A DNA stretch of 64,000 nucleotides, taken from the NCBI GenBank assembly GCA_903858685.1, contig CAIOJR010000217.1, positions 2,707 through 66,706 on the forward strand, given 5' to 3'. Of the stretch, positions 8,544 to 64,000 are shown one piece after another; position 1 is the first letter of the stretch; each line of letters starts with the position of its first letter. This DNA comes from an uncultured Caulobacterales bacterium. GTDB taxonomy: Bacteria > Pseudomonadota > Alphaproteobacteria > Caulobacterales > Caulobacteraceae. Position numbers and translations under genes: made by a program. The notes under the pieces were generated by a model that saw only the letters and a program-made list of their open reading frames with translations, had not been told where the DNA came from and did not search any database.

Positions 8544-11366
8544 TCAAGCATGGGCAGGCGCCGCTTCATTAAAGGCTCTGATCACGGACGTCACCAGGTT
8601 CAACGGCGTGACAGGCTTCGCCAGATGCGCGAAGAAGCCTGCACGCTGCACGCGCTGCTGATCGTGGTCATTTGCTGAAAACAATAGGGTTGGCACAAAT
8701 TGATTGGGCCCCGGCGTGGCGCGAACCTGAGCCAGGAGCGCTTCCCCGGACAGGCCGGGCATCTGCTGATCAAACAACATGACGTCGAATGACTGCTCGC
8801 CAAGGAGCGCCACGGATTGGACGGGGTCTTCCTGTTCAGACACTTCGGCGCCGACGCTTTCCAATATGGCGCGCGTGATTTCCCGAACGCTGGCATTGTC
8901 ATCCACGATCAGGACACGAAGCCCGGCAAGGCTGATGCTCAACGCGGACGGAGAAGGCGATTGCCGGGCGGCGGCGGGACGCGCGGGGATGTGGAACCAG
9001 AATGAACTGCCGGTCCCAACAGCGCTTCGAACGCCGATTTCGCCGCCCATGGCCTCGACCAAACCCTTTGAGATCGCAAGTCCCAATCCAGTGCCGCCAT
9101 GACGGCGCGTCGTTGACATGTCAGCCTGACTGAAGCGCTGAAATAAGCTTTGCGACTGCTCGCAGGTCAGACCCGTCCCGGTGTCCGATATTTCTATCTG
9201 CAACTCTTCTTCAGAAGAATTGTACCGAGCTTCAATCGTAACAGCGCCCACATCGGTGAACTTGATCGCATTGCTCACAAGGTTCAGCACAACCTGTCGA
9301 ACCTTGTCCCGATCAACCGACAGTGCGTGAGGCGTCTGCGGGTCGACGACAAGGTTTAAATCGATCCCCTTCTCGCGCGCCTGGGCTTCAAAGATCGCCA
9401 CCGCGCCCTCGATTAATTCGGCGGCATTGGCGGCTTGCAAATTGATCTTCAATTCGCCGGCCTCAATCTTGGAGAAGTCCAGCACGTCGCTCACCAGCGC
9501 CACGAGCGCTTCACTGGCTGCGGCAATGCGTGTGACATATTTCTGATGTTGAGGCGATAGTTGGCTTCCCTCGGACAGGAGCCGCGTAAATCCCAGTATT
9601 GCGGTCAGAGGAGTGCGGATTTCATGGGTCATATTCGCGAGAAAAGCCGATTTTGCTTTGGTCGCAACAATGGCGGCGTCACGCGCCTGTTGCAAATCAG
9701 CTTCAATCGTCTTTCGGTTTGTTACATTACGCACAACGTCCTGAAATCCGATCAGGCCTCCCGATTCAGGATCGTACAATTTCATCGGGTGAGCCTCGAG
9801 CCACACCAGTGATCCATCCTTGGCGGGCGCCCGGTACTCGAAATAGATCGGGGTGGCGTCCGGGCCCGCCTCGACATATTTCTGCAACTGGCTCAGAACA
9901 CGGTGCAGATCTTCGCGTGCAATGAAATCCTGCACCTTGCGCCCGATCAGCTCCTCCGGCCGGTAACCCATTGCGTCGTGAATCGACGGGGACAGATATA
10001 TAAATTCACCACCTATAGTATATTGCGCGACAATGTCCGTGGCGTTTTCACTGAGCAGGCGGAAGCGCGCTTCCCGATCGGCGACGGCTCTCTCCGCCAG
10101 GACGCGCTCGGTCACATCGCGGATGATGTCGGTAATCGCGATGGCCTTCCCAGTCACGGGATCGCGGGCGAGCATGGGTCGCGCCTCAAGCCAAATCACG
10201 CGACCATCCTTGCGGATGTGACGGTACTCTACAATCTCGCTGCCTGCGTGGTTGAGGGCCGATGAGATTTCTGCTTTCACCCGCTCCCTGTCATCAGGGT
10301 GCACAAAATCTGTCGCTTGACGACCGATCGCCTCGCTGGGCGCGAAACCGGTGATCCGTGTCGAGGCCGGGGACACAAAGGTGAAGCGTCCATCCAGGCT
10401 CGCCTCGGTAAAAATGTCATTTGCATTATCCGTCAATCGCCGAAAGCGGGCCTCACCCGCACGCAGCGCCGCATCCGCCAGACGAAGGTGGGTGACATCC
10501 TGATAAGTCCCCATCAGGGCCTCGACCTTGCCGTCAGCCCCCTTTCGCACTGTCCCGCGTGCGAGAACGTCCCGGCGCTCCATGTTCGGCCATATCACAG
10601 TCCCCTGATGCTCATAGTCCAGGCCGTCAGCCATCGCCCGTTCGACGACCACTCGCAGCCTTTCCCGGTCTTCGGGGACATACAGTGCGAGAACCCGGTC
10701 GAGGTCGAGCGCGGGCAGACCCGGGTCGACGCCGTGGATACGGTAAACCTCGGTGGACCAGTCGGTTTGGTTCCTGGCAAGGTCCCATGACCAGGTGCCC
10801 AAGCCGGCCATTTGTTCAGACAGGGACAGAAGCCTGCCGCGGTCGGCAGCCAGCTGGGCCTGTTTCTGGCTCTCTATCGCCTCCGAACGCAAGACCAGCG
10901 CCTGAACAACGCTGGCCGCCAGGCTTGCGAGCGTTTTCCGATCCTTAGCATCAAAGCTCGTGTGGGGCGCCTGGTCCATCAAACACAACGCGCCCAGGCG
11001 ATAGCCTTCGTGGGTGACGAGCGGTGCGCCCGCGAAAAACCGGATATGAGGCGCTTCGGTCACCAGAGGATTATTGCGAAATCGACGATCCTGTGTCGCG
11101 TCGAGGACGACCGTCACGTCGTCAGTCTGGATGGCGTAGTGGCAGAATGAGACGGCCCTCGGCGTTGCATTTGCTTCGAAGCCGATGGTGGACTTGAACC
11201 CCTGCTGGTCTGAAGCCACAAATGAAATAGCCGCGAAGGGGACACAGAAGAGGTCAGCGGCGAGCTTGGTCAGGCCGTCGAAAATTGCCTCCCGCTCGGC
11301 GCTTAAAACATCAAGCTTGGCCAGGACTCGCAGGCGTTCCAGCTCATAAGAAGCGTCTTGACCCAT
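8544..11366 (-). CDS. Hybrid sensor histidine kinase (GAF, multiple PAS, HisKA, HATPase, receiver)
   Basis: 940-aa ORF with H-box MTHEIRTPLTAILGF, G-boxes DTGTGL and GGTGLGLAISKGLVE, and a C-terminal receiver (VLIVDDN ... MLFDQQMPGLSG). Confidence 0.9.
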   Translation of the reverse strand: MGQDASYELERLRVLAKLDVLSAEREAIFDGLTKLAADLFCVPFAAISFVASDQQGFKSTIGFEANATPRAVSFCHYAIQTDDVTVVLDATQDRRFRNNPLVTEAPHIRFFAGAPLVTHEGYRLGALCLMDQAPHTSFDAKDRKTLASLAASVVQALVLRSEAIESQKQAQLAADRGRLLSLSEQMAGLGTWSWDLARNQTDWSTEVYRIHGVDPGLPALDLDRVLALYVPEDRERLRVVVERAMADGLDYEHQGTVIWPNMERRDVLARGTVRKGADGKVEALMGTYQDVTHLRLADAALRAGEARFRRLTDNANDIFTEASLDGRFTFVSPASTRITGFAPSEAIGRQATDFVHPDDRERVKAEISSALNHAGSEIVEYRHIRKDGRVIWLEARPMLARDPVTGKAIAITDIIRDVTERVLAERAVADREARFRLLSENATDIVAQYTIGGEFIYLSPSIHDAMGYRPEELIGRKVQDFIAREDLHRVLSQLQKYVEAGPDATPIYFEYRAPAKDGSLVWLEAHPMKLYDPESGGLIGFQDVVRNVTNRKTIEADLQQARDAAIVATKAKSAFLANMTHEIRTPLTAILGFTRLLSEGSQLSPQHQKYVTRIAAASEALVALVSDVLDFSKIEAGELKINLQAANAAELIEGAVAIFEAQAREKGIDLNLVVDPQTPHALSVDRDKVRQVVLNLVSNAIKFTDVGAVTIEARYNSSEEELQIEISDTGTGLTCEQSQSLFQRFSQADMSTTRRHGGTGLGLAISKGLVEAMGGEIGVRSAVGTGSSFWFHIPARPAAARQSPSPSALSISLAGLRVLIVDDNASVREITRAILESVGAEVSEQEDPVQSVALLGEQSFDVMLFDQQMPGLSGEALLAQVRATPGPNQFVPTLLFSANDHDQQRVQRAGFFAHLAKPVTPLNLVTSVIRAFNEAAPAHA

Positions 11367-12745: not shown

Positions 12746-13942
12746 CTACCGGCCGCAATTTGGCGCGGACAACGGATTGCACCTTGCGGCGAATCCTGTG
12801 GGAAGGCTCACGACATAGTTGCCGCCTGGGGAGGCGCCGGGCTTCTCATAGTCGGTGGAAACGATCTGACCGCCGCTGGCGAACGTCGCTGTCGCGCGGC
12901 TCATATCGTTGACCCGGGCCTCATAGGTCTCGATGTCGGACCGTGTGCGCACGAAGTATCCGCGCTTGACCTCGTCACGGATCTCGGGCCCCCGCGCCAC
13001 GGCGTTGTCGTCGAGGATGAACGCCGCGTGCGCCTGTCCGGGCTGGGAATCCATGAAAGCGACGCGGCCCTTGAGGCCCGGATGGCCAATGAGGTAGGCC
13101 GCTGCGCCGTCATGGCCCGTTGCGGTCATCAGGAGGAACATCACCTTCCCCCGGGACTGGGCCAGGCTTGGCCAGGCGCCGGCGAGAACGGCCGCCTCCA
13201 GCGTGGGATAGTTTCCCCGCACATCGTCCGGCGTGATGATCCGTTCTCGGGGAAACCCTTCCAGGATCGTGTGGTCGATCTCGTCATAGGTCTCGGGCGT
13301 GAACGGCGGCGCCGGTTTCGAGCCCGGCAGGATCGGGAAGGACTTCACCTTGGCCTCGACCATGACGAAGATCGGCACGTGGCCGCGATGACGGTCGGAC
13401 CAGGCCCGGATCTCTGCGATACAGCTGCGGAAGGTCGGGCAAGTGCTGCGGAAATCCACGTCAGGCATGTGCAACACCTTCAGACCCGGCGCCGCCACGG
13501 TCGCCGGATCGAATGGGAGCAGGTCCGCCACCCCCTGTGCGCGCAGGATTCGATAGGCCGCCGGATCGCCATAGGCGCCGCCGACGGGGTCAGGGTTCAC
13601 ATCGATCTCGAGGCCGCGCACGCCCAGGTCCAGCTGCTCGGTCAGGGATGGATGGCTATAATCCAGGGCCTGGCTGAAGGTGACATCGTTGGGATGGTCG
13701 ATCAGGAACTGCCGACGGGCCGCCTCGGGCAGACTGCCGACGATCTTGCCCATGGAGGGAAGCTTGGCGTCCATCATGGTCAGAATGTGGGGATCAACGG
13801 CTGCGTGATAGCTGTTGTGAGTGCCCAGCACCTGGATCTGGTTGATCTTCAGGTCCGCCGGGAGGTCAGGCGCCTCGACCGCGGAGACGGCGGTGGCGAT
13901 GGCGACGCTGGCCGCCACGAGCATGAGCACGCGGGTCATCAT
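12746..13942 (-). CDS. Secreted PI-PLC-like (Ca-dependent phosphoinositide phospholipase C family) phosphodiesterase
   Basis: 398 aa with signal peptide MMTRVLMLVAASVAIATAVSA. The LGTHNSYH motif near the N-terminus and GLEIDV are typical of the PLC-like phosphodiesterase TIM barrel. Confidence 0.65.
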   Translation of the reverse strand: MMTRVLMLVAASVAIATAVSAVEAPDLPADLKINQIQVLGTHNSYHAAVDPHILTMMDAKLPSMGKIVGSLPEAARRQFLIDHPNDVTFSQALDYSHPSLTEQLDLGVRGLEIDVNPDPVGGAYGDPAAYRILRAQGVADLLPFDPATVAAPGLKVLHMPDVDFRSTCPTFRSCIAEIRAWSDRHRGHVPIFVMVEAKVKSFPILPGSKPAPPFTPETYDEIDHTILEGFPRERIITPDDVRGNYPTLEAAVLAGAWPSLAQSRGKVMFLLMTATGHDGAAAYLIGHPGLKGRVAFMDSQPGQAHAAFILDDNAVARGPEIRDEVKRGYFVRTRSDIETYEARVNDMSRATATFASGGQIVSTDYEKPGASPGGNYVVSLPTGFAARCNPLSAPNCGR

Positions 13943-40504: not shown

Positions 40505-42661
40505 TTGCTGACTGCCGAAGCTCCGGGGCCTGCCGATGGCCGCCTTCCGCCTGCCACCCGCACGATCCTGCTACAGGGGGATTCCGCGCTCGCAAAACGG
40601 CAGGAAATACTGAATTATTTCCACAGGACGTTCGACCTTTACGAGCGCCTTTTCGATTGTATCTCAGACGAACGGGGCTTTTACGCGAAGGCCATTCCGC
40701 TTCGCCACCCGCTGATCTTCTACTTCGGCCATACGGCGGCGTTCTTCATCAACAAGCTGCTTGCAGACGGGCAGATCTCGGAACGGATCGATGCGGCGAT
40801 CGAGGCCCAGGTCGCCATTGGCGTCGACGAGATGAGCTGGGACGACCTTGATGACCGCAACTATGTATGGCCCACGATTGCCGCACTGAGAGCGTACCGG
40901 GCCGAGGTGCGGGAACGGGTGTCACGGCAGATTCTGTCGATGCCGCTGTCCCTTCCGATCCGATGGGACAGTCCCGCCTGGGTGATCCTGATGGGGATCG
41001 AGCACGAGCGGATTCACCTGGAAACCTCAAGCGTCCTCATTCGCCAGTTACCGCTGGAGTGGGTGCGGGACGATCCAAGCTGGCCCGCCTGCGACCGTGC
41101 GCGTCAGCAGGTCTCAAGCGTGCCGGCGAACCGCCTGCTGCCTGTGTCTGGCGGCGAGGTCGTCTTGGGCAAGCGCGACGCCACCTATGGCTGGGATAAC
41201 GAATATGGCGAGCGAAGGGTGACGCTGGCGCCTTTCGAAGCCTCGGCGATGCTGGTCAGCAATGCCGAATATTTCACCTTTGCAGCGGCTGACGGCTATT
41301 TAGATCGTCGCTGGTGGTCAGATGAGGGCTGGGCCTGGCGGACCTTCGCCGGTGCAACGCGCCCGACCTTCTGGGTGGGCGACATAGAGGAGCCGGGGTC
41401 CCTGAAGCTTCGCCTGATGACCCGGGAAGTCTCCATGCCGTGGGATTGGCCCGTGGAAGTAAATGCATTGGAAGCTCAGGCCTTCTGCCGCTGGAAGTCC
41501 TCGATCACCGGAAGGTCGGTGCAACTGCCCAGTGAGGCGGAATGGGCGGCCCTGCGAAACCGGGTCGCGGGTGATCAACCAGACTGGGAAACCGAGCCGG
41601 GCAATATCAACCTGTCCCGATGGGCCAGTTCCTGTCCTGTCGACATGTTCGCCCAGGGCGACGGCTTCTTCGATATTGTCGGCAATGTCTGGCAGTGGAC
41701 CTCGACGCCGATCAGCGGCCTTGGCGGTTTTGCCGTCCATCCGCGCTATGACGACTTCTCAACGCCCACCTTCGATGGCAAGCATGACCTGATCAAGGGC
41801 GGCAGCTGGATTTCGACGGGCAATCTGGCGCTAGCCTCCGCGCGTTACGCATTCCGCCGTCACTTTTTCCAGCACGCAGGCCTTCGCTACGTCGTGTCCA
41901 GTTACAAAGAGCCCGCCTTGGAAAACCCATACGAAACTGACGAGCAGGTCTGCCAGTACCTGGACTTTCACTATGGAGACGAGCATTTCGGCGTGCCGAA
42001 CTTCCCCCGGGCGCTTTCTGAAATCGCGATGGACTTCTGCCCTGAAGGCGGGCGCGCGCTGGATATTGGCTGCGCTGTCGGCCGGGCGAGCCTGGAACTG
42101 GCCCGGCGGTTCACCCATGTTGACGCCGTGGACTTCTCTGCGCGCTTCATTGACGTGGCCCAGCAACTGGTCGCCAGGGAGAGCTATCGCTACACCCTGC
42201 CGCTCGAGGGGGAGCTTGTGGATTACCATGAGGCCCGCCTTTCTCGGCTCGGCCTTGGCGCGGACGAGGCCAGCCGCGTCCATTTCAGTCAGGGTGACGC
42301 CCTGAACCTGAAACCCAAATATACCGGATACGACCTCATTCTGGCGGCCAACCTGATTGACCGCCTGCGTGAGCCCGCGCAGTTCCTTGCCGAGATCGGA
42401 CGCCGGATCAAGCCCGGCGGGGTTCTGGTTCTGACCTCGCCCTACACCTGGCTCGAGAGTTTCACGCCGCGCGCCAACTGGCTGGGGGGCGTTCGCGAGA
42501 ACGGAGAGGCGGTGACCACCTACAGGGCGCTGCAGCTTGCCCTGGCGGACTGTTTTGAGGAGGCGGCGCCGCCGCGGGACGTGCCATTCGTGATCCGCGA
42601 AACGGCGCGAAAGCATCAACACACCCTGGCGCAGCTCACCGTCTGGCGCCGCCGCGCCTAA
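40505..42661 (+). CDS. ovoA: 5-histidylcysteine sulfoxide synthase / mercaptohistidine methyltransferase (ovothiol biosynthesis)
   Basis: 718 aa with a TTG start. The N-terminal DinB-like part carries LRHPLIFYFGHTAAFFINKL and the iron motif IEHERIHLE (HxxxHxE). A central FGE-sulfatase-like domain carries GNVWQWT. The C-terminal SAM methyltransferase carries ALDIGCAVGRASLEL. Confidence 0.85.
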   Translation: MLTAEAPGPADGRLPPATRTILLQGDSALAKRQEILNYFHRTFDLYERLFDCISDERGFYAKAIPLRHPLIFYFGHTAAFFINKLLADGQISERIDAAIEAQVAIGVDEMSWDDLDDRNYVWPTIAALRAYRAEVRERVSRQILSMPLSLPIRWDSPAWVILMGIEHERIHLETSSVLIRQLPLEWVRDDPSWPACDRARQQVSSVPANRLLPVSGGEVVLGKRDATYGWDNEYGERRVTLAPFEASAMLVSNAEYFTFAAADGYLDRRWWSDEGWAWRTFAGATRPTFWVGDIEEPGSLKLRLMTREVSMPWDWPVEVNALEAQAFCRWKSSITGRSVQLPSEAEWAALRNRVAGDQPDWETEPGNINLSRWASSCPVDMFAQGDGFFDIVGNVWQWTSTPISGLGGFAVHPRYDDFSTPTFDGKHDLIKGGSWISTGNLALASARYAFRRHFFQHAGLRYVVSSYKEPALENPYETDEQVCQYLDFHYGDEHFGVPNFPRALSEIAMDFCPEGGRALDIGCAVGRASLELARRFTHVDAVDFSARFIDVAQQLVARESYRYTLPLEGELVDYHEARLSRLGLGADEASRVHFSQGDALNLKPKYTGYDLILAANLIDRLREPAQFLAEIGRRIKPGGVLVLTSPYTWLESFTPRANWLGGVRENGEAVTTYRALQLALADCFEEAAPPRDVPFVIRETARKHQHTLAQLTVWRRRA

Positions 42662-55929: not shown

Positions 55930-56697
55930 ATGGCCCCGCAAAGGTTCGATCTTACCGGCCGCATCGCCCTGGTGACCGGGTCCTCGCGCGGAATCGGTCT
56001 GGCCCTGGCCCGCGGACTTGGCGAAGCGGGGGCCCGGATATTGCTGAACGCGCGAGACGCGGCGAGAACGGAGGCGGCGGCGCAGGCGTTGCGGGACGAC
56101 GGTCTTGACGCTCTCGCCTGCCCCTTTGACGTCACAGACCCGCAAGAGGTCGCCGACGGACTGGCGAATTGTGAGCAGCTCATGGGTCCTCTGGACATTC
56201 TGATCAACAATGCCGGCATACAGCGCCGCGGCCCGCTGCTCGACATGCCCGAAGAGACGTGGGCCGAAGTGCTCGACACAAACCTGACGGCCGTCTTTCG
56301 CGTGGGACGGGAGGCGGCTCGCCGGATGGCGTCCCGGAAAAGGGGCAAGATCATCAATATCGCGTCCCTCATGAGCGAGGTCGCTCGTCCAGGGGTGGCT
56401 CCCTATGCGGCGGCCAAGGGAGGCGTGAGGCTGCTGACCCGGGCGATGTGCGTCGAGTGGGCCCCGCTGGGCATCAATGTCAACGCCATAGGACCGGGCT
56501 ATTTCGCGACCGAGCTCAATGCGGACCTCGTCGCCGATGCGACATTCGACGCCTGGATCCGCGCGCGCACCCCTGCCGGGCGTTGGGGCAAGGTCGATGA
56601 ACTGGTCGGCGCCGCAGTATTCCTCGCCTCGGACGCCGCCAGCTTCGTCCATGGTCAGGTCCTCTATGTGGACGGCGGCGTATTGGCTGGCCTTTAG
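55930..56697 (+). CDS. Short-chain dehydrogenase/reductase (KduD/gluconate-5-dehydrogenase-like)
   Basis: 255 aa with motifs TGSSRGIGLA, NNAG and YAAAKGG. Confidence 0.85.
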   Translation: MAPQRFDLTGRIALVTGSSRGIGLALARGLGEAGARILLNARDAARTEAAAQALRDDGLDALACPFDVTDPQEVADGLANCEQLMGPLDILINNAGIQRRGPLLDMPEETWAEVLDTNLTAVFRVGREAARRMASRKRGKIINIASLMSEVARPGVAPYAAAKGGVRLLTRAMCVEWAPLGINVNAIGPGYFATELNADLVADATFDAWIRARTPAGRWGKVDELVGAAVFLASDAASFVHGQVLYVDGGVLAGL

Positions 56698-56729
56698 GCC
56701 CCGGCCCCCGTCCAGCCGTCAGTCGGACG

Positions 56730-57854
56730 TCAGACCGACAGGTCGGTCCAGCCGCGCTGCTCCCGGCTGGCCAGGACGCAGCGCTCAACAAAGGCCATGC
56801 TCCGAACACCAGCCTCGATATCGGGCAGGTCAGGCGCGTCCCCGTCACCCCGGACAACCGCGGCGAAGTCCCGATATATATTGGCAAAGGCCAAGATAAG
56901 GGGGGCAAACGGACCCGCGAGTCCCGGGGCGCGACGGGCCGTCTCCGCGATATGTCCGGCCTCTTGGACCACTGTCTCGACGCCGCCATCCAGGCGGCTG
57001 AGCAACAGCTGGTCCGGGGTCTTGACACTCCAGTCCAGCGCCCCCGTGTCCCCGTAGACCCGAAGCTGCAGCGTGTTCATCTCACCAACCGCAATCTGGG
57101 AGGCGATCAGCACCCCCCGAGCGCCATTGGCGAAGCGCAGCAGAACCGTCGCATCATCGTCCAGTCGGCGCCCGCCCACGACACTTCCCAGGTCCGCCAG
57201 CACCTGGGCGACCGGCTGACCCGAGACAAATTCCGCCAGGTTGAAGGCGTGGACGCCGATGTCGGCGATACATCCGCCTATCCCGGATTTTTCGGGGTCA
57301 ACGCGCCAGGCGGCCTGCTTGTTTCCGGCCGTCTCCACCGCCGCCGCCAGCCAGGCCTGGGAATATTCCACCACGACCTTGCGCACCTGGCCAATCGCTC
57401 CGGACGCCACAAGCCTGCGCGCCTCCCGGACCATCGGAAAACCGGTATAGGTAAAAGTCAGGGCATAGGGGCGCCCGGACCGGCGAACAGAGCGTGCAAG
57501 TTCCTCCGCTTCGGCCAGAGTGGCCGTGGCCGGCTTGTCGGAAATCACCGCCAGACCCGCCGCCAACGCCGCCTGCGCCGCCGACAGGTGCAGATGGTTG
57601 GGAGTGGCGATCGCCACCAGCTCAATCCCGTCCGGTCGCCCGACTTCCGCGGCCAGCATGGACTCAACCCCGCCATAGGCGCGCGCAGGGTCGACGCCAT
57701 AGCTTTGAGCCGATTGCGCGGATCGCTCAGGATCGCTGCTGAACGTCCCCGCCACCAGGGCGATCTGGCCATCCAGCTCCGCCGCGATGCGGTGCACTGG
57801 TCCGATAAGAGACCCCTTGCCGCCCCCGATCATTCCCAGTCTCAGACGGCGCAT
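56730..57854 (-). CDS. Gfo/Idh/MocA-family NAD(P)-dependent oxidoreductase
   Basis: 374 aa with an N-terminal Rossmann motif LRLGMIGGGKGSLIG and an EKP-like context in VISDKPATATLAEAEEL. Confidence 0.85.
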   Translation of the reverse strand: MRRLRLGMIGGGKGSLIGPVHRIAAELDGQIALVAGTFSSDPERSAQSAQSYGVDPARAYGGVESMLAAEVGRPDGIELVAIATPNHLHLSAAQAALAAGLAVISDKPATATLAEAEELARSVRRSGRPYALTFTYTGFPMVREARRLVASGAIGQVRKVVVEYSQAWLAAAVETAGNKQAAWRVDPEKSGIGGCIADIGVHAFNLAEFVSGQPVAQVLADLGSVVGGRRLDDDATVLLRFANGARGVLIASQIAVGEMNTLQLRVYGDTGALDWSVKTPDQLLLSRLDGGVETVVQEAGHIAETARRAPGLAGPFAPLILAFANIYRDFAAVVRGDGDAPDLPDIEAGVRSMAFVERCVLASREQRGWTDLSV

Positions 57855-58043
57855 GGCTTCAAATCCTGTTTATCGACCGGGTCCAGGGTCTGACTCAGGA
57901 TTAGGATGAGGATCAAAAACCTCAACCCCAAAATCTCAATTCGGCGCGTGGGTCCGGCGGGCAATGTCGTCCATGTCCGACGGACGTCTCGTGCGCGGTC
58001 AGTTGGACTTGGACGCGGCCAAATCCACCAACCCAGTCGACTC

Positions 58044-59795
58044 TCAACAATTAAGCCAATCCATCAAGGCAGACAGCGCCAATTCTCGACTGGAGGACCG
58101 GGCCAGTCCGTGGTCCAGGGTCGGCTCAACCCTAATCATCAGGTTAGCGGCATGGCGCATGCGGGCGCCATGGGTTCCGAAATGAGCGTTCACCTCATCG
58201 AGTGATGAATCGTCCAGTCCCACCAGAAAGGCCGCCCGTCCGCCGCGGGCGAGAAACGCCTGCAAAATGGAACTTGGCGACCTGGACACCGAGGCCTGGC
58301 GCGCAACCCTCCATCGGCGCAGGCCCCTCGAAATGAGCGTCCGTAGCACGGCGTAAACATCAATCCTGCCTTGCAGCAGACGGCGCCATGCGCTGGGCGA
58401 CAGCGCCGCCGACCTATAGGCGAGGGTCGCCCGCCCCTGGTCCGTCCGGCCGAAGGTCAGCGCATCGCCTTTTCGCCATGTCAGTCTGGCGGGGCTGACG
58501 GCGAAGATGCCGCAGACCCGCTCATTTTCAGCTTCCAGAAGCACATGATAGGCGCCCGAGCAGACGCCGACCAGAAAGATTTCCTGGCTTCCTGCGCTTT
58601 TGAGCAGCGCGACAGCCGCCGCCAGATCGTCACGCCGGGGGGTCTCATAGACATGCGTCCGAAGATGCGGCGTCGGGGCGGGACTGTCGCCCAGTCCTGC
58701 GAAATCGAATCGCAGACAGGTGATCCCCTGGCTGGCGAGGCGACGCGACGCTGTCGTGGCGAACCCCCCGATGCCCGCGCGAGGCTCGCCTCCCGTATTG
58801 CAAAAAATCACTCCTCTGGCGCGGTCCGCCCCGTGATGTGGAACGGTCAGAATCCCTTGTAAGCTGGAGCCAAATGCTATGGGTCTTTCGAAATAGTCGT
58901 CACAGGCGAGCAAGGGTTCTGGTTGGGCCAGACCGGTCGAAGGGGTGTCGTCGGGCCGCGGTTGCCGCGTTTCGGCGCCAAATCTATCGGCCATCCAGTC
59001 ACAGACGCGGTCAAAGAGTGACTGAGGAACCTGGTTGCTGTGGGTGTCGAGAAACAGCGCCTCAAGGCCTGCAAAATCGCTGACCGTCGCGTCAACGCCG
59101 CCATCGACCAGGGAAGCGGCGAACCTTTCCGACAACAGGTTGTGAGTGGCCATCAGAACCGGTGCGCCGGGAAGGGCGAGGTCCTTCAGATTCATCCTGG
59201 ACAGGCTGTCAGCGGTCGCCTTGTTCAGGAGGACGCCGTCGATATCCAGCGCCATCGCCGATGTCTGCGGCGCCTCGCGTCCCGCCTGCATCGAAAACTG
59301 TTGCTGTCTGAGCCAGGATCGTCCGCTCAGCACGGGCGCCAGCAATATGAGTCCGTCTGCCTGGGTCGCCTGGGCGTAGGCCAAGGTCGCGCCCAGGCGA
59401 ACTCCAGCCAGCACGACACGTCGAACATGGGTCATCCGGCGGAGATGGTCGATCGCCCGCTCGATATCTTCAAGCCATGTTTGCACCGCGTCGGTGTCAT
59501 CCGCATCCGGCAATGGCAGGGAATCCCCCTCGCCCCGGTGGTCGTATCGCAGCGTGGGAAATCCGTGCGCGGCGAGTTGATCGGCCAGAATCCGCATCGG
59601 CGCGTGGACGCAGCGCTCGTCACGTCCGATCGGCGACACAATCACGACGCCTGTATCCAGACTCGCACTCTGGGCATTGTGCAGCCAGCCAAACAGCCCG
59701 GCAAAGGTCGCAGGCTGCATGCCTTCGGCTGCGGGAGTCTGAACGCTCAAGGTTTCGACCTGCTTTGGCGCAATATGTATAACAACCTGGTTCAC
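58044..59795 (-). CDS. Fused double alpha/beta-hydrolase-fold protein (resembles the exosortase-A-associated hydrolase 2 + hydrolase 1 pair)
   Basis: 583 aa in two halves, each with the pattern (V/I)xxxP/NxG...RxDxxGxGDS: TLRYDHRGEGDS and CLRFDFAGLGDS. The elbow of half 1 is VLAGVRLGATLA, with Arg at the nucleophile position. The elbow of half 2 is FLVGVCSGAYHV, with Cys. A late His occurs in PTLDHGL. Confidence 0.6.
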   Translation of the reverse strand: MNQVVIHIAPKQVETLSVQTPAAEGMQPATFAGLFGWLHNAQSASLDTGVVIVSPIGRDERCVHAPMRILADQLAAHGFPTLRYDHRGEGDSLPLPDADDTDAVQTWLEDIERAIDHLRRMTHVRRVVLAGVRLGATLAYAQATQADGLILLAPVLSGRSWLRQQQFSMQAGREAPQTSAMALDIDGVLLNKATADSLSRMNLKDLALPGAPVLMATHNLLSERFAASLVDGGVDATVSDFAGLEALFLDTHSNQVPQSLFDRVCDWMADRFGAETRQPRPDDTPSTGLAQPEPLLACDDYFERPIAFGSSLQGILTVPHHGADRARGVIFCNTGGEPRAGIGGFATTASRRLASQGITCLRFDFAGLGDSPAPTPHLRTHVYETPRRDDLAAAVALLKSAGSQEIFLVGVCSGAYHVLLEAENERVCGIFAVSPARLTWRKGDALTFGRTDQGRATLAYRSAALSPSAWRRLLQGRIDVYAVLRTLISRGLRRWRVARQASVSRSPSSILQAFLARGGRAAFLVGLDDSSLDEVNAHFGTHGARMRHAANLMIRVEPTLDHGLARSSSRELALSALMDWLNC

Positions 59796-59958
59796 ATACT
59801 GTGCAATGCAAACATTGTGCCGATCAGTTTATCTTCCCGTGATCAAAGCCTCCCATTTTTGAACTGAAACGGCTTACACACCCATTGGGATCAAGCATAT
59901 ATTAGCCGTGCGCAGTCATGGATAGTGGCTTCATTCCAGGGTTTAGATCGAATTGCTC

Positions 59959-60219
59959 ATGTCCACCTTCGCCGTCATTGAACGTCAAATTCAGATCATC
60001 GCCAAAGTGCAGGGCAAGCACATCGCCCCCCTGACCGGCGGCCTTGTGCTGCTGGACAGCGGCCTCGATTCCATGAGCCTGGCCATTCTGGTGGGCAGAC
60101 TTGAAGACGAGCTGGGCGTCGACCCGTTTGCGGAGGCTGACGATCAGGCTTTTCCGACGACGCTGGGAGACCTGGTCACCTTTTATGACCGGGCGATCGA
60201 AGCCCGAAACCAGCCATAG
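59959..60219 (+). CDS. Acyl/aminoacyl carrier protein (phosphopantetheine-binding)
   Basis: From ORF 59953..60219; I prefer the ATG at 59959. LLDSGLDSMSLAILVGRLEDELGV contains a canonical DS(L/M) attachment serine in a helix-II context. GC3 is high. The antisense 158-aa ORF was rejected. Confidence 0.7.
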   Translation: MSTFAVIERQIQIIAKVQGKHIAPLTGGLVLLDSGLDSMSLAILVGRLEDELGVDPFAEADDQAFPTTLGDLVTFYDRAIEARNQP

Positions 60220-60230
60220 GCCCGCATGGG

Positions 60231-61154
60231 CTAAAGGCCGAGCAGAGTCAGAACGGGCTGCGGCCAGGCTGACAGATCCAGGCCGTGGTGCGCGAACATG
60301 GCGATGGTCATGCGATCCATGCCGAAGCCGACACAACCGGTATGGGCCGGTCCGCCACGCGCAAGATGGATGTCCCAAGCCTCCCCAAAATGGCTCTTGT
60401 GATAATTGAAGCTCATGCAGGCCGTGGGTTTATCGTGTGACAGGATCGGAATCAGCAGCTCAAATTTCAATTTCTGTTCGCGCTGTCCAGCGGCCAGAAA
60501 CTGACCGCCCGCCCCGAAAAACGGATCGTTGGCGACGTCGACACTGTAGGGGAGCTGCAACTGCTCTGCCATGGACTGAGCCTTGACGATCCAGTCATCG
60601 CGAAACCGACAAACCGTTTCAGGAGAACCAATGCAGACATATTCCCGCTGGCGGAAAGACTGCATCCGGTCGATGTCGCGAGAGGGCTCACGCCGAAAAC
60701 ACTCGCAACCGACATCAAATATCCAACCCTGATCCGGCGCTGCGCCCTTGGCGGCGGCGATGGGATAGACCGGGTAACAGCTGGCGGGAGTAAGGACGAG
60801 ATCGGCGACCCCCAGTCCCTCAGTCCAGGGCTCGCCTTCATATATCCGGTTTGCGGTGCGCCTGATCTCCGCGGGCGATCCCGCCAGACAGCACATGAAT
60901 CCCACAAGATTGGGAAAACTCTGCAAATAGCCAGACTTTTCAATGTCGCTGCGGCTCATGACCGGCGGGAAACGATAGACCTCGGCAGCCTCGGGTCGGA
61001 ATGTGGAGATGAAGTCCGTCAGCCCATCCAGAACCCGTTCATAAAGCCCGGTCCGGGCGCGCACGCCGTCTGCGCCCATGGGGCGGAACAAGACCTGTTC
61101 CAGATTTGCCAAGCGCTCATCATTCGACACTTGAGAACCAACGAACCCACTCAT
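60231..61154 (-). CDS. Amino acid--[carrier protein] ligase (truncated class II, SerRS-like aaRS homologue)
   Basis: 307 aa, a catalytic core without a tRNA-binding arm. Class II motif 2 is GCECFRREPSRDIDRMQSFRQREYV and motif 3 is GCVGFGMDRMTIAMF. Candidate Zn ligands are Cys in PASCYPVY, Glu in CFRRE and Cys in HTGCVGFG, as I recall for methanogen-type SerRS and aa:CP ligases. Confidence 0.75.
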   Translation of the reverse strand: MSGFVGSQVSNDERLANLEQVLFRPMGADGVRARTGLYERVLDGLTDFISTFRPEAAEVYRFPPVMSRSDIEKSGYLQSFPNLVGFMCCLAGSPAEIRRTANRIYEGEPWTEGLGVADLVLTPASCYPVYPIAAAKGAAPDQGWIFDVGCECFRREPSRDIDRMQSFRQREYVCIGSPETVCRFRDDWIVKAQSMAEQLQLPYSVDVANDPFFGAGGQFLAAGQREQKLKFELLIPILSHDKPTACMSFNYHKSHFGEAWDIHLARGGPAHTGCVGFGMDRMTIAMFAHHGLDLSAWPQPVLTLLGL

Positions 61155-61217
61155 ATTCGCTCCTATCGGCGATTCATGGCGTGACGACGCCTATGCCGAA
61201 TATCGACGCCACAAGAT

Positions 61218-61925
61218 CTAGGCGTCATCAGCAAACAACTTGTCCGCAGCAGAATAGCTGCTGGGCAGGCCGATATCGATGAAGGCGCCTTCAAACTCCA
61301 GTCCCGCCAGCCCGCCCGTGCGACATGCGTGAGGCAGGATGTCAGACTCCAGGGAACAGGAGGTCAGACCTGACGGCAGCCCCGCCTTATCTATGCGGTA
61401 GGCGCCGCCATTGATCAGACCCGCCTTTTTCTCGCCAGAACGGGCAACAATGCGACAGACGCGACGGTCGTCCAGCTCTACCGTTTCGTAGCGATCAGCC
61501 AGATCCAGTCGCTTCAGCCCGAGCACGATCGGGGCCAGATCGGCGTCAGCCAGGCTGCGCCAGTCGAAGTCGAACCAGGTGTCGCCATTGACGAGCAGGA
61601 AGGTCTGATCGAGCCGGTCCCGTGCAAAAAGCAGGGCGCCGCCTGTTCCCATCGGCTCAGGCTCGATCGAAAGGTCGATCTGAATTCCCAGGCGCTCAGC
61701 GATGGCGCTTTCCGCAAGCCAGTGCGCAACCACGTCAGCACGAAAACCGGCCAACAGGACGATGCGTGTCAACCCGCTCAGAGCCGCCTTTTTCAGAAGA
61801 TGGGCCAAGAAGGGCGCTCGGCCGATCGGCAGCATCGGCTTGGGCGTCTCGCGCGTCAGGTCTCCCAGGCGGCTTCCAGCCCCCCCGATGAGGATCGCAC
61901 ATTGGGTGACGGGACCCGGCGTCAC
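61218..61925 (-). CDS. Sugar-1-phosphate nucleotidyltransferase (HddC/GmhD-like)
   Basis: 235 aa with a GTG start that overlaps the upstream stop as GTGA. The N-terminal signature is AILIGGAGSRLGDLTRETPKPMLPIG. Confidence 0.8.
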   Translation of the reverse strand: MTPGPVTQCAILIGGAGSRLGDLTRETPKPMLPIGRAPFLAHLLKKAALSGLTRIVLLAGFRADVVAHWLAESAIAERLGIQIDLSIEPEPMGTGGALLFARDRLDQTFLLVNGDTWFDFDWRSLADADLAPIVLGLKRLDLADRYETVELDDRRVCRIVARSGEKKAGLINGGAYRIDKAGLPSGLTSCSLESDILPHACRTGGLAGLEFEGAFIDIGLPSSYSAADKLFADDA

Positions 61926-62995
61926 CGGGGCACCGTCCAGGCTTCCGCGCCGTCAAATGTGAACTTCACAGAGCTGGCCTGCCCGCCCGCCCGGTTCAGG
62001 GTCGTGATCAGATTGTAACGGTTCTCCGGATCCGTGCAGAACATGAGAAATCCCCCACCGCCCGCGCCCGAGATCTTCCCGCCATAGGCGCCATGGGCCA
62101 TCGCCTGCTCGAAGAGCGCCTCGACCGCAGAGGTGGAGACGCCCTTCGCGGTGCGACGCTTGGCCTCCCAGGATCGCATGAGAATCTCGCCGATTTGTCG
62201 GATATCGCCATCCAGCATGGCCCGACGCATGGATGCCGCGTCCGCCTTCAGCCGATGCATGTTGTCGATCGTCTCGGCGTTCAAGGTTCGCAGACCGTCA
62301 ATCTGCTCCTGAATGATCACGTCCGAGCGGCGCGACTGACCGGAAAAACAGATGACAATCGAGGCTTCGAGTTCGTTCAGATGCGCCCGCGGGAACCTCA
62401 GCGGGCTGACGAGAACGCGCTCATCAGCAAGAAATTCCAGAAAATTGATCCCGCCGAACGCGGCGGCGTAGTGATCCTGTCGACCGCCCGCCAGACCGAT
62501 CTCTATCCGTTCAATGTCGAACGCCGTGCGGGCGACCTCATGGGGCCCGAGCGGCAGATCAAGCGCATGGCGAAAGGCTTCCACCAGCGCCACCACCAGG
62601 GCTGATGACGATCCCAGCCCCGAACCGGCCGGCGCGTCGATTGTGGAGGTGACCGTCAGCGCCTGGGGTTGGCCATCCAGATAGTGCTTCACCATGTGGC
62701 TGTAGACCGCCTTGTGCAGCACCAGACCGCCGTCCAGCGGCAAGGCCTCGCCAAGCTGATAGGTCTCTTCCGCGCCCAGATCACTGGCCCGGAAAGTTGT
62801 GGTCCCCTCTCGGGTGGACGACACATGTGCAAAGGCGAACCGATCAATGGTGGCGTTCAGCACCGCCCCGCCGAACTGATCGCAATAGGGCGACAGGTCC
62901 GTTCCGCCGCCTGCAAGCCCCAGACGCAAGGGCGCGCGCGCTCGAACATCGAACTGCCGCTCCCGCCCGGTCTTGGCCATGATGAGACGTCCCAT
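61922..62995 (-). CDS. GHMP-family sugar kinase (HddA-like)
   Basis: From ORF 61922..63034. The start is uncertain: ATG 62995 or 62980 both avoid overlap with the PAP2 gene. Motifs are RAPLRLGLAGGGTDL, PAGSGLGSSSALVVALV and GGKISGAGGGGFLMF. Confidence 0.8.
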   Translation of the reverse strand: MGRLIMAKTGRERQFDVRARAPLRLGLAGGGTDLSPYCDQFGGAVLNATIDRFAFAHVSSTREGTTTFRASDLGAEETYQLGEALPLDGGLVLHKAVYSHMVKHYLDGQPQALTVTSTIDAPAGSGLGSSSALVVALVEAFRHALDLPLGPHEVARTAFDIERIEIGLAGGRQDHYAAAFGGINFLEFLADERVLVSPLRFPRAHLNELEASIVICFSGQSRRSDVIIQEQIDGLRTLNAETIDNMHRLKADAASMRRAMLDGDIRQIGEILMRSWEAKRRTAKGVSTSAVEALFEQAMAHGAYGGKISGAGGGGFLMFCTDPENRYNLITTLNRAGGQASSVKFTFDGAEAWTVPR

Positions 62996-62999
62996 TTCC

Positions 63000-63569
63000 C
63001 TAGATGACCGTCGCGCCCGACAGCCGAACCCCAAACAGCAACGGCGCCAGCGAAGCCACCGTCAGTCCCACCATCAATTCGATCGCGGGCGCCTGAAAAC
63101 TATTCGCCGGCCCTCTCACCGTCGCGACCATCAGGCCAAGCGGGACGGACGCCACCGCCAGACCCGCCGCCACATCGGCCATGGTGTGATGATGAAGCGT
63201 CACCCGCGTCACCGCCACGGCGGCCACGACGCCCAGGCAGCCCAGCGCGCCGAGCCTGTTGGCGAGCGTCGATCCGGTGCGGACGAAAAGCCACGCCGAA
63301 AACCCGAAAACGAAGGTCGCCATGGCCGCATGTCCGCTTGGCGCACCGCGCGTCAGCATCCATTGCCGGGCCAGCCAGGGCTCAGGCGAGCCGGACGCCG
63401 CGACCGCTTTCAACACCGCGACAAAAATCGCCAGCAGGGTCAGGCATAGCAGGGTCGCCAGACCGATCACAGGCCTTAGCCGGGTGGCGCACCACACCGC
63501 CACGAACAGACCCGCAGAACCGACGATGGCCAGGTCGCCCAGGTCCGTCACCATGGCCGCAAGCTTCAT
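63000..63569 (-). CDS. PAP2-family membrane phosphatase
   Basis: 189 aa with about 6 TM segments. PAP2 motifs are PSGHAAMA and TRVTLHHHTMADV. The ATG overlaps the upstream stop as ATGA. Confidence 0.8.
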   Translation of the reverse strand: MKLAAMVTDLGDLAIVGSAGLFVAVWCATRLRPVIGLATLLCLTLLAIFVAVLKAVAASGSPEPWLARQWMLTRGAPSGHAAMATFVFGFSAWLFVRTGSTLANRLGALGCLGVVAAVAVTRVTLHHHTMADVAAGLAVASVPLGLMVATVRGPANSFQAPAIELMVGLTVASLAPLLFGVRLSGATVI

Positions 63570-64000
63570 GCCGACTGACCCAGTAATTGCACGCCGCCGC
63601 GCGCGATCTCATAATGCAGTCGGGGCATGTTCTGGGACGCCATATAGGCCTCCAGTTCCTCACCCGGCCCAGGGGTGAACAACATCAGAAACCCCCCGCC
63701 GCCCGCGCCGATGATCTTGCCGCCCGTCACCCCGTGGGCGCTTCGGACGTGATCATACAACAGGTCAATCGCAGGCCAGCTGATCTTCTGGGACATGCGC
63801 TTCTTGCTCAGCCAGTGCTCGTGCAGCATCTGGCCCCACCCTTCCAGGTCGCCTCGCACCCAGGCGTCACGGATTCTGAAGCCCAGGTCCTTGATGGCGT
63901 CCAGGCTATCGCCAACAGTGGCCTGCCGGTCCTGGCTGGCGCCCTTCATCGCCGAGTTCTGATCGTCCAATATGCCCGACGCGTCCCGGCGCAGTCCGGT
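63566..64000 (-). CDS. Second GHMP-family sugar kinase; N-terminal part lies beyond the window end
   Basis: The frame stays open past ORF-track start 63970 up to base 64000 (..TGLRRDASGILDDQNSAMKG..). The C-terminal GHMP motif is GGKIIGAGGGGFLMLFT. Confidence 0.75.
   Translation of the reverse strand, partial: TGLRRDASGILDDQNSAMKGASQDRQATVGDSLDAIKDLGFRIRDAWVRGDLEGWGQMLHEHWLSKKRMSQKISWPAIDLLYDHVRSAHGVTGGKIIGAGGGGFLMLFTPGPGEELEAYMASQNMPRLHYEIARGGVQLLGQSA

What the first reader, a model, noticed from the sequence alone, without database searches (positions are those of the whole stretch)
59953..61154. aaRS-like ligase and its carrier protein arranged tail-to-tail
The ligase keeps class II motifs 2 and 3 and three Zn-ligand-like residues, but at 307 aa it is too short to carry a tRNA-binding domain. 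The 86-88 aa ORF next to it has a textbook LDSGLDSMSL attachment site. The carrier gene lies on the opposite strand (convergent, 11-nt gap) and shares a divergent promoter region with the double hydrolase. This implies the carrier is co-regulated with the presumed acceptor or transferase enzyme rather than with its loading enzyme.
Basis: partly seen in the sequence, partly recalled or inferred. Interest (0 to 1): 0.65.

Follow-up and report, generated by a model that had tools for sequence, protein, structure and literature searches.

The report
tRNA-synthetase-like ligase with swapped carrier partner
This is a genuine member of a known enzyme family that loads small amino acids onto carrier proteins, but the carrier gene beside it belongs to a different carrier class from the one these enzymes are known to load, in a stripped-down locus that could help find the family's still-unknown role.

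Summary
A 307-aa ORF (60231-61154, -) and an 86/88-aa carrier ORF (59959/59953-60219, +) converge with an 11-nt gap, and a 583-aa double alpha/beta-hydrolase diverges from the carrier.

The ligase is an ordinary member of the amino acid:[carrier protein] ligase family. It passes the NCBIfam equivalog cutoff, is 57% identical to the crystallised Bll0957, and keeps the Zn ligands and motif 2/3 residues.

The adjacent carrier is not the characterised cognate class (Bsr0959/Atu2571, "CP-A"). It belongs to a second class ("CP-B"). In 88 of the 89 other loci with enough sequence downstream, an AMP-forming adenylating enzyme gene follows CP-B directly. That gene, the usual acyl-CoA-dehydrogenase-like partner and CP-A were all undetected in the window.

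The tail-to-tail layout is what remains if the adenylase and reductase genes are deleted from the common convergent layout.

The double hydrolase is a recurrent neighbour of these ligases. Its N-domain has an invariant Arg at the nucleophile position. Its C-domain has a Cys-Asp-His triad.

Here the ligase ends an operon of sugar-activating genes. My best reading is a minimal aminoacyl-transfer module acting on a glycan; every transfer step is inferred. This is a new variant of a known kind, of moderate interest.

The parts
60231..61154 (-). Amino acid:[carrier protein] ligase, 307 aa. It is a class II aaRS catalytic core of the methanogen-type SerRS lineage without a tRNA-binding domain. Zn ligands: C126 (60777-60779), E171 (60642-60644), C274 (60333-60335). 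Unusual A215 (60510-60512) replaces an otherwise R/K position.
   Evidence: NF005479 scores 422.9 bits against a cutoff of 357. PDB 3mey/4h2w E = 1e-114. Residue checks. Conservation test.
59959..60219 (+). Carrier protein of the CP-B class, 86 aa (88 aa if the TTG at 59953 is used). The phosphopantetheine Ser38 codon is 60070-60072. Helix II reads DS-MSL instead of the class-typical DS-LCF.
   Evidence: PF00550 scores 22.7 against 20.8. CP-B HMM 104.9 bits, CP-A HMM -2.3 bits. Alignment A3. Most deviant of 101 CP-B sequences.
60220..60230 (.). 11-nt gap between the convergent stop codons. It overlaps a short palindrome GCCCGCATGGGC (60220-60231). No intrinsic terminator.
   Evidence: Sequence. 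Terminator scan found none at the junction. Folding z-scores -1.8 and -1.5, no U-tract.
58044..59795 (-). Double alpha/beta-hydrolase, 583 aa from GTG. The real start is more likely TTG 59750 or ATG 59720. The N-domain has an invariant Arg133 at the nucleophile elbow (59397-59399). The C-domain has Cys412 (58560-58562), Asp529 and His562.
   Evidence: Pfam Hydrolase_4 and Abhydrolase_1/6. TIGR03101 (N) and TIGR03100 (C) match below cutoff. Alignments A1 and A2. AF2 model pLDDT 87 places R133 and C412 between a strand and a helix.
59796..59958 (.). Divergent intergenic region between the hydrolase and the carrier. It holds one sigma-70-like match, TACACA-17-TATATT, on the + strand at 59875-59903.
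   Evidence: 1 site found, 1.0 expected from shuffles, so position is the only support. No repeats or operator-like palindromes.
61218..61925 (-). Sugar-1-phosphate nucleotidyltransferase (HddC-like, below cutoff), 63 nt upstream of the ligase on the same strand.
   Evidence: PF00483. NF049965 scores 116.9 against 300.
61922..63034 (-). GHMP-family sugar kinase (HddA-like, below cutoff). It overlaps the nucleotidyltransferase start by 4 nt.
   Evidence: PF00288 and PF08544. NF049969 scores 340 against 600.
63000..63569 (-). PAP2-family phosphatase, same strand, overlapping the kinase start.
   Evidence: PF01569 scores 33.4 against 27.2.
63566..64000 (-). Second GHMP-kinase-like gene. Only its C-terminal part is in the window, and the reading frame stays open to the window end.
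   Evidence: PF08544. The open frame to 64000 and 39% identity to the first kinase come.

Best explanation
The locus is a pared-down, rewired version of a widespread proteobacterial gene neighbourhood built around an aaRS-derived amino acid:[carrier protein] ligase.

Step 1, shown for the 57%-identical homologue Bll0957 and inferred here from conserved residues: the Zn-dependent class II core activates a small amino acid (Gly or Ala type) with ATP to the aminoacyl-adenylate.

Step 2, inferred: it thioesterifies the phosphopantetheine arm of the adjacent 86-aa carrier. This carrier is of the CP-B class, which elsewhere is served by an AMP-forming adenylase. That adenylase was not detected in the window, so the aaRS-like ligase would have taken over as loader.

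Step 3, inferred: the C-terminal Cys412/Asp529/His562 domain of the double hydrolase takes the aminoacyl group by transthioesterification. The N-terminal domain, with Arg in place of a nucleophile, would serve for binding rather than catalysis.

Step 4, inferred from operon context: the group is passed to a sugar-derived acceptor made by the co-transcribed GHMP kinase(s), nucleotidyltransferase and PAP2 phosphatase. This would be an O- or N-aminoacyl decoration of a glycan or glycolipid.

The tail-to-tail geometry is a historical remnant of the common layout (ligase convergent with a CP-B, adenylase, SDR operon) after loss of adenylase and SDR. It is not a regulatory device.
For: Ligase identity:
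- NF005479 scores above its equivalog cutoff.
- E = 1e-114 to Bll0957 structures.
- The catalytic and Zn residues checked are invariant in 51 homologues.
- No deviation at 71 invariant columns.

Carrier class:
- 104.9 bits to the CP-B HMM against -2.3 to CP-A. Bsr0959 behaves the opposite way. The CP-A class is the solved carriers 4h2s_C and 2jq4.
- The CP-B to adenylase coupling holds in 20 of 21 genome loci and 68 of 68 metagenome loci with clear room downstream.
- tblastn found no adenylase, ACAD, CP-A, SDR, TPP or other canonical-cluster gene in the window, and no remnants at E<5 in 56501-64000.
- A second locus (L033) also has CP-B without an adenylase, directly followed by double hydrolase, ACAD and ligase. 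It shares the helix-II F41L change.

Ligase and hydrolase linkage.

Glycan context:
- The window operon.
- A ligase/hydrolase pair inside a Wzz/Wzy/glycosyltransferase cluster.
- The Caulobacter locus beside Wza/Wzy.
- A GH2 gene in the Azospirillum operon.
- An independent published context inference for DUF1839 (PMC10318531).

Cys nucleophile and Arg pseudo-nucleophile.

Layout logic: the ligase is convergent with the CP-B operon in 15 of 20 genome loci.
Against: - No experiment or structure shows that an aa:CP ligase can charge a CP-B carrier. The only demonstrated substrates are CP-A carriers.
- The window ligase carries four substitutions at >=95%-conserved positions, including R215A at the start of the segment that was swapped in the 4h2w chimera. 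The carrier is the most deviant of 101 CP-B sequences. Both facts fit relaxed constraint as well as partner adaptation.
- No close relative (>67% identity) of the ligase shares this arrangement, so conservation of the layout cannot be shown.
- The sugar genes score well below their equivalog cutoffs, so the acceptor is unknown.
- The rest of the genome was not visible. About 6 kb of the 70,202-bp source contig lies outside the window.
- Foldseek gives only generic esterase and lipase matches for the hydrolase.
Confidence: 0.4

Rival explanations
1. The adjacency is an accident of rearrangement. The ligase charges a CP-A-type carrier encoded elsewhere in the genome, and the CP-B carrier is loaded by an AMP-forming adenylase encoded elsewhere. 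The two neighbours do not interact.
For: All biochemically shown substrates are CP-A type (PDB names). CP-B is followed by an adenylase in 88 of 89 other testable loci. The layout is explained by simple deletion. One canonical supercluster (L053/L054) lacks the ligase altogether, so components can be separated.
Against: tblastn found no CP-A, ACAD or adenylase in the 64-kb window. L033 independently places an adenylase-less CP-B in one co-directional unit with double hydrolase, ACAD and ligase. Both adenylase-less carriers share a helix-II change. All three genes keep their functional residues.
Confidence: 0.25
2. The double hydrolase is a hydrolytic (type II-like) thioesterase or editing enzyme that frees the carrier. 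It is not a transferase, and the sugar genes upstream are unrelated neighbours.
For: Structural neighbours are esterases, lipases and one thioesterase, DcsB. In canonical superclusters the hydrolase follows amino-acid-metabolism genes (HTS, O-acetylhomoserine sulfhydrylase) with no glycan genes nearby.
Against: A near-invariant Cys nucleophile and a conserved second, nucleophile-less domain are unusual for a simple editing thioesterase. There is repeated embedding in or next to polysaccharide loci. The ligase is 63 nt downstream of the nucleotidyltransferase with no predicted terminator.
Confidence: 0.15
3. The trio is a decaying remnant of a canonical cluster and no longer has a function.
For: Loss of ACAD, CP-A, adenylase, SDR and the other canonical genes. 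The carrier is the most deviant CP-B, and the ligase ranks 47th of 48 for deviations at conserved positions. There is a local GC dip to 57-59% against 63-67% around it.
Against: All three ORFs are intact. The ligase has 0 of 71 deviations at invariant columns, and the hydrolase has 0 of 46 at >=95% columns. The Ser38 motif and all other CP-B hallmarks are kept. No pseudogene fragments of the lost genes remain.
Confidence: 0.12

Closest known systems
Bradyrhizobium japonicum Bll0957 / Bsr0959 and Agrobacterium Atu2573 / Atu2571 amino acid:[carrier protein] ligase systems (PDB 3mey, 3mf1, 4h2s-4h2y, 2jq4)
   Same: The ligase is a full-length homologue (57% identity to Bll0957 and the same length class) with the Zn triad and motifs 2 and 3, and it scores above the NF005479 equivalog cutoff. 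As in those systems, the carrier is a separate small gene that is not co-transcribed with the ligase.
   Different: The neighbouring carrier belongs to another class (CP-B), with no detectable similarity to Bsr0959 or Atu2571. The ACAD-like gene lies immediately upstream of the ligase in 44 of 45 genome loci but is absent here. The ligase has Ala at the DPFFG[R/K] position.
Methanogen-type (atypical) seryl-tRNA synthetase (PDB 3w3s; NF002120, TIGR00415)
   Same: Homologous catalytic core, E = 4e-20, aligned over SerRS residues about 307-507, with shared Zn-ligand positions.
   Different: It lacks the roughly 250-aa N-terminal tRNA-binding domain. It scores 92.6 bits against a cutoff of 611, so it is not a SerRS.
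Canonical CP-B / AMP-forming adenylase / SDR operon of the ligase supercluster (for example L003, L047, L053, L055)
   Same: The window carrier is 44-55% identical to these carriers and has the DSGLDS...RLED..DPF...FP.T signature.
   Different: The adenylase and SDR are missing here. Helix II reads MSL instead of LCF. The carrier abuts the aaRS-like ligase instead.
Exosortase A system-associated hydrolase 2 and hydrolase 1 (TIGR03101, TIGR03100). From my own knowledge of the TIGRFAMs descriptions, these occur as neighbouring genes with an AMP-forming ligase, an acyl carrier protein and a PLP decarboxylase.
   Same: The best NCBIfam matches of the N- and C-terminal halves are hydr2_PEP and hydr1_PEP respectively. 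The pairing with a carrier protein and a carboxylate-activating ligase is also shared.
   Different: Both scores are below cutoff (77 against 203, and 125 against 168). The two domains are fused in one protein. The loader is a class II aaRS-like enzyme. No exosortase or PEP-CTERM gene was seen among the window ORFs scanned.
DltA/DltC (D-alanylation of teichoic acids) and AlmE/AlmF/AlmG (glycine on Vibrio lipid A). This comparison rests on established knowledge, not on tests here.
   Same: The proposed logic matches: a stand-alone loader charges a small carrier protein with a small amino acid, which is then transferred to a cell-envelope glycoconjugate.
   Different: Those loaders are ANL-family adenylases, not aaRS-like enzymes. 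Their transferases are MBOAT (DltB) or LpxL-like (AlmG), not alpha/beta-hydrolases. No homology was tested or is claimed here.

Membership tests
Amino acid:[carrier protein] ligase (NF005479; Bll0957/Atu2573 type) | Whole-protein score above the curated equivalog cutoff | tested here: met
   422.9 bits against a cutoff of 357, covering profile positions 25-315 of 318.
Amino acid:[carrier protein] ligase (NF005479; Bll0957/Atu2573 type) | Class II aaRS catalytic core of the methanogen-type SerRS lineage, without the N-terminal tRNA-binding domain | tested here: met
   The 307-aa protein aligns to SerRS residues about 259-502 only. PDB 3w3s E = 4e-20, 3mey E = 5e-114.
Amino acid:[carrier protein] ligase (NF005479; Bll0957/Atu2573 type) | Zn-binding Cys/Glu/Cys triad and motif 2 and 3 arginines | tested here: met
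   C126, E171, C274, R154, E156 and R281 are present and invariant in 51 homologues. That these positions bind Zn in Bll0957 is from my memory of Mocibob et al. 2010, which could not be read here.
Amino acid:[carrier protein] ligase (NF005479; Bll0957/Atu2573 type) | Neighbouring cognate carrier of the Bsr0959/Atu2571 class (NF005480) | tested here: not met
   The window carrier has no NF005480 hit, no PDB hit to 4h2s_C or 2jq4 at E<=1, and -2.3 bits to the CP-A HMM. tblastn found no CP-A anywhere in the window.
Amino acid:[carrier protein] ligase (NF005479; Bll0957/Atu2573 type) | ATP-dependent aminoacylation of a carrier's phosphopantetheine thiol, with no tRNA charging | not testable with these tools
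   This needs biochemistry.
Phosphopantetheine-binding carrier protein (PF00550) | Score above the gathering threshold, and a conserved Ser in a DS motif at the start of helix II | tested here: met
   22.7 bits against 20.8, residues 33-57. GLDS with Ser38 is invariant in alignment A3.
CP-B carrier class of the ligase supercluster (defined here) | Sequence membership | tested here: met
   104.9 bits to an HMM built without the window sequence. It is 44-55% identical to members.
CP-B carrier class of the ligase supercluster (defined here) | An AMP-forming adenylase gene immediately downstream | tested here: not met
   Present in 20 of 21 genome loci and 68 of 68 metagenome loci with clear room downstream. 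tblastn found none in the window.
Exosortase A-associated hydrolases 1 and 2 (TIGR03100, TIGR03101) | Scores above the curated cutoffs | tested here: not met
   124.7 against 168.45, and 77.0 against 202.75.
Exosortase A-associated hydrolases 1 and 2 (TIGR03100, TIGR03101) | Two separate adjacent genes in an exosortase/PEP-CTERM locus | tested here: not met
   This is a single fused 583-aa protein. No exosortase-type domain appeared among about 35 window ORFs scanned against Pfam. That scan was not exhaustive.
Canonical alpha/beta-hydrolase (Ser-His-Asp) | A nucleophile at the elbow between strand 5 and helix C, plus His and an acid residue | tested here: inconclusive
   The C-domain has Cys412, Asp529 and His562 (Cys in >=90% of 40 sequences; His and Asp invariant). 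The N-domain has an invariant Arg133 at the elbow and no nucleophile. The fold is confirmed, but the chemistry is not canonical.

The most novel reading that the evidence does not exclude
A class II aaRS-derived ligase has displaced the usual ANL adenylase as loader of the CP-B carrier class. Together with a Cys-nucleophile double alpha/beta-hydrolase, it would form a minimal three-protein system that puts a small amino acid (Gly or Ala) onto a sugar-derived cell-envelope molecule. This would be a proteobacterial counterpart of the Dlt and Alm systems built from entirely different parts, and it would give aa:CP ligases their first biological role.
Probability: 0.25. Interest if true: 0.75.

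Novelty: new variant of a known kind. Interest (0 to 1): 0.5.

Why it matters

The comparative work done here gives three concrete handles:
- The ligase genes sit in a few stereotyped neighbourhoods containing two distinct carrier classes.
- A Cys-type double alpha/beta-hydrolase is a near-constant companion.
- Some of these neighbourhoods, including this one, are tied to glycan genes.

The window locus is the smallest version seen: ligase, one carrier, the hydrolase and sugar-activation genes. That makes it a convenient system for reconstituting the pathway and for asking whether carrier specificity of an aaRS-derived enzyme can switch class.

If instead the two neighbours do not interact, the locus is simply a rearranged copy of a known system.

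Tried and rejected
- **Extending beyond the window.** I tried look-up of encoding contigs on the GHMP kinase and on two start variants of the hydrolase. No record was found. The ligase gave only a 2.1-kb twin contig with 1 SNP, so there was no dN/dS information.
- **First metagenome scan** with the single hydrolase sequence found nothing. It was replaced by a protein search plus context look-ups.
- **Primary literature.** Mocibob et al. 2010 and Craig et al. 2011 are not held. Haft 2006 does not mention the hydrolases. No newer paper on the role of these ligases turned up.
- **Foldseek of the hydrolase model against PDB** gave only generic esterases and lipases, with no functional clue.
- **Terminator or structured RNA at the 11-nt junction:** not significant.
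- **Operator-like repeats in the divergent region:** none.
- **Pseudogene remnants of ACAD, adenylase or CP-A near the locus:** none at E<5.
- **"The second GHMP-like ORF is a truncated fragment":** rejected, because its frame stays open to the window end.
- **"The carrier ORF is a chance ORF":** rejected.
- **Left-flank genes as part of the system.** GH95, SDR, GFO/IDH/MocA, transporters and regulators were considered but judged to be unrelated sugar catabolism.
- **A fused ligase-linker-carrier structure prediction** was not attempted, because the tool admits only exact window or searched sequences.
Full report
**1. What is in the sequence**

- A 307-aa ORF lies on the minus strand at 60231-61154.
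- A small plus-strand ORF ends at 60219. It is 88 aa from TTG 59953 or 86 aa from ATG 59959.
- The two stop codons are separated by 11 nt (60220-60230).
- A 583-aa ORF at 58044-59795 on the minus strand diverges from the small ORF.

Alignment with homologues and an independent gene call on a twin contig favour the ATG start for the carrier. For the hydrolase, many homologues start at the position of Met26 (ATG 59720), and the twin contig's gene call uses TTG 59750. The divergent spacer is therefore 157-238 bp.

**2. The ligase is a standard family member**

- It scores 422.9 bits on NCBIfam NF005479 (amino acid--[acyl-carrier-protein] ligase, cutoff 357). It scores only 92.6 of 611 on methanogen-type SerRS.
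- Its best solved relatives are the Bradyrhizobium Bll0957 structures (3mey, 4h2w; E about 1e-114, aligned end to end). A type-2 SerRS follows at 4e-20, aligned only to that protein's C-terminal catalytic half.
- Identity to Bll0957 is 57%.
- The Zn-ligand equivalents C126, E171 and C274, motif 2 (R154, E156) and motif 3 (R281) are invariant in all 51 aligned homologues.
- The window protein shows no deviation at 71 strictly invariant columns.
- It has four unusual substitutions at >=95%-conserved columns: R136K, M169Q (two residues before Zn-ligand E171), R215A and L282M. R215 opens the segment that differs between native Bll0957 and the engineered variant crystallised with the Agrobacterium carrier (compare the two PDB sequences).
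- The family is very large: at least 5,953 proteins at E<=1e-40. No relative is closer than 67%.

**3. The carrier is real but belongs to a different class from the known substrates**

The small ORF passes the Pfam PP-binding threshold. Comparing 45 genome loci that hold ligase homologues shows that the common neighbourhood contains two different carrier genes.
- **CP-A** lies just upstream of, and usually divergent from, an acyl-CoA-dehydrogenase-like (ACAD) gene, which is followed by the ligase. CP-A is homologous to the crystallised "aminoacyl carrier proteins" 4h2s_C (Bsr0959) and 2jq4/4h2w_C (Atu2571), and to NF005480.
- **CP-B** heads an operon of CP-B, an AMP-forming adenylase and a short-chain dehydrogenase. 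It has no such PDB matches.

HMMs built from the two sets, without the window sequence, separate the classes cleanly.
- The window carrier scores 104.9 bits on CP-B and -2.3 on CP-A.
- A Bsr0959 fragment scores 64.8 on CP-A and 3.6 on CP-B.
- The window carrier also gave no NF005480 hit and no PDB hit to the aminoacyl carrier proteins.

**4. How unusual the pairing is**

- In the 21 genome loci with a CP-B gene, the adenylase follows directly in 20. The exception is L033.
- A second scan with a CP-B alignment returned 80 metagenome loci. The adenylase follows in 68.
- The other 12 are nine with under 200 nt of sequence left, two with about 500-600 nt, and one with an unassigned 1.9-kb gap.
- None of the 80 has a ligase tail-to-tail.
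- In the window, tblastn finds no adenylase, ACAD, CP-A, SDR, TPP enzyme, class IV aminotransferase, homoserine acyltransferase or O-acetylhomoserine sulfhydrylase. At E<5 in 56501-64000 there are no remnants either.

The window carrier is the most deviant of 101 CP-B sequences at >=85%-conserved columns: 7 of 34 against a median of 2. The changes concentrate around helix II (L39M, F41L, A46G), and its motif reads DS-MSL instead of DS-LCF. L033, the other adenylase-less carrier, shares F41L and reads DS-LSL.

**5. Why tail-to-tail**

In 15 of the 20 genome loci with the CP-B operon, the ligase's 3' end faces the 3' end of that operon (ligase forward; SDR, adenylase and CP-B in reverse). Removing the adenylase and SDR genes yields exactly the window geometry. 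The nearest ligase homologues (P0122, P0141) sit in the canonical layout, so the window arrangement is derived.

The junction has no intrinsic terminator, so overlapping 3' ends are likely. One sigma-70-like site (59875-59903, + strand) sits appropriately upstream of the carrier. One site is also what shuffled sequence gives.

**6. The double hydrolase**

- Pfam finds two alpha/beta-hydrolase domains.
- The best NCBIfam matches are exosortase-A-associated hydrolase 2 (N-terminal half) and hydrolase 1 (C-terminal half), both below cutoff.
- The protein search returned 198 homologues at E<=1e-5.
- In 40 aligned homologues, the N-domain elbow is G-x-R-x-G with an invariant Arg133. The C-domain elbow is G-x-C-x-G, with Cys412 in >=90% of sequences. 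Asp529 and His562 are invariant.
- An AlphaFold2 model (pLDDT 87, pTM 0.90) places R133 and C412 between a strand and a helix, the classic nucleophile position.
- Foldseek finds only generic esterases, lipases and one thioesterase.
- The window protein has no deviation at 46 conserved columns.

**7. Linkage of hydrolase and ligase**

- L033: CP-B, hydrolase, ACAD and ligase in one direction.
- Canonical superclusters end with homoserine acyltransferase, O-acetylhomoserine sulfhydrylase, then the hydrolase.
- Caulobacter sp.: CP-A, ligase and DUF1839 diverge from ACAD and hydrolase, beside Wza/Wzy/WecG genes.
- Azospirillum brasilense p2: one operon of ACP, ACAD, ligase, DUF1839, GH2 and hydrolase.
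- A 171-kb soil contig: Wzy-like gene, ligase, then a convergent hydrolase, inside a Wzz/glycosyltransferase/Bac_transf cluster.
- Plasmids and chromids: 58 records hold the hydrolase and 70 hold the ligase. Of 36 shared records among the listed rows, 35 have the two genes within 25 kb and 21 within 5 kb. The remaining record is circular, and its distance across the origin is about 20 kb.
- DUF1839 is a papain-like family, for which a glycan-related, acyl-dependent role has been inferred from context (PMC10318531).

**8. Local context**

The ligase is the last gene of a same-strand run:
- a GHMP-like kinase that runs off the window end;
- a PAP2 phosphatase;
- a second GHMP kinase (HddA-like, 340 of 600 bits);
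- a nucleotidyltransferase (HddC-like, 117 of 300 bits), 63 nt upstream of the ligase.

The left flank is unrelated catabolism and regulation: GFO/IDH/MocA oxidoreductase, SDR, GH95, transporters and a TetR regulator. The rest of the window encodes TonB-dependent receptors and sensors.

**9. Interpretation**

My best-supported reading is a minimal aminoacyl-transfer module.
- The ligase activates a small amino acid. Gly or Ala is expected by homology. The M169Q and A276G-type differences next to the Zn ligands leave the exact specificity open.
- It loads the adjacent CP-B-type carrier.
- The Cys412 domain of the hydrolase accepts the aminoacyl group and passes it to a sugar-derived acceptor.

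Only the first half-reaction has experimental support, and only in a homologue. Everything after it is inference from gene order, conserved residues and recurrent context.

The main rival is that ligase and carrier are mere neighbours left by a deletion, each working with partners encoded elsewhere. Two further rivals are that the hydrolase is only an editing thioesterase, and that the trio is decaying. The decay reading is weakened by intact catalytic residues and zero deviations in the hydrolase.

**10. Verdict**

The family assignment is correct and already known. The "its carrier" assumption and the regulatory reading of the layout are not supported as stated. What is new is a rare, stripped-down variant in which an aaRS-derived ligase abuts a carrier of the class normally served by an ANL adenylase, next to sugar-activation genes. 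Because the biological role of these ligases remains unknown (PMC9437257), the locus and the ligase/hydrolase/glycan linkage give testable leads. Interest is moderate.

Noticed in passing
window 63566-64000 (-): A second GHMP-kinase-like gene, 39% identical to the first over its C-terminal domain. Its reading frame stays open to the window end. The operon therefore starts outside the window and holds two kinases.
   Followed up: partly
window 60510-60512 and 60648-60650 (ligase residues A215 and Q169): The window ligase alone has Ala where 50 homologues have Arg or Lys (DPFFG[R/K]). It also has Gln for a >=95%-conserved Met two residues before Zn-ligand E171. These could reflect altered carrier or amino-acid specificity, or drift.
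   Followed up: partly
L053 and L054, 1173-3169: A canonical supercluster that keeps CP-A, ACAD, SDR, adenylase, CP-B, TPP enzyme, aminotransferase, HTS, sulfhydrylase and double hydrolase, but has no ligase gene between ACAD and SDR.
   Followed up: no
L058 (Azospirillum brasilense plasmid p2) 3122-10794; L049 (Caulobacter sp.) 1915-9734; L036-L040 (Cupriavidus): A second stereotyped neighbourhood: CP-A, ACAD, ligase, the papain-like DUF1839, a GH2-family protein and the double hydrolase. It is common on rhizobial, Azospirillum, Burkholderia and Mycetohabitans replicons.
   Followed up: partly
window 59500-61300: Local GC falls to 57-59% against 63-67% on both sides. The dip covers the carrier, the ligase and the divergent spacer. 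It may reflect separate origin or relaxed codon usage.
   Followed up: no
window 40505-42661 (+): A 718-aa fusion of DinB_2, FGE-sulfatase-like and SAM-methyltransferase domains. From my own knowledge this is the architecture of OvoA-type sulfoxide synthases of ovothiol biosynthesis. It is unrelated to the finding.
   Followed up: no
window 60220-60231: A 12-nt palindrome, GCCCGCATGGGC, fills the gap between the two convergent stop codons. It is too short and lacks a U-tract, so it is not a terminator.
   Followed up: yes
window 12746-13942 (-): A Ca2+-dependent phosphoinositide phospholipase C-like protein (PF16670, E = 4.5e-107) lies among TonB-dependent receptor genes.
   Followed up: no
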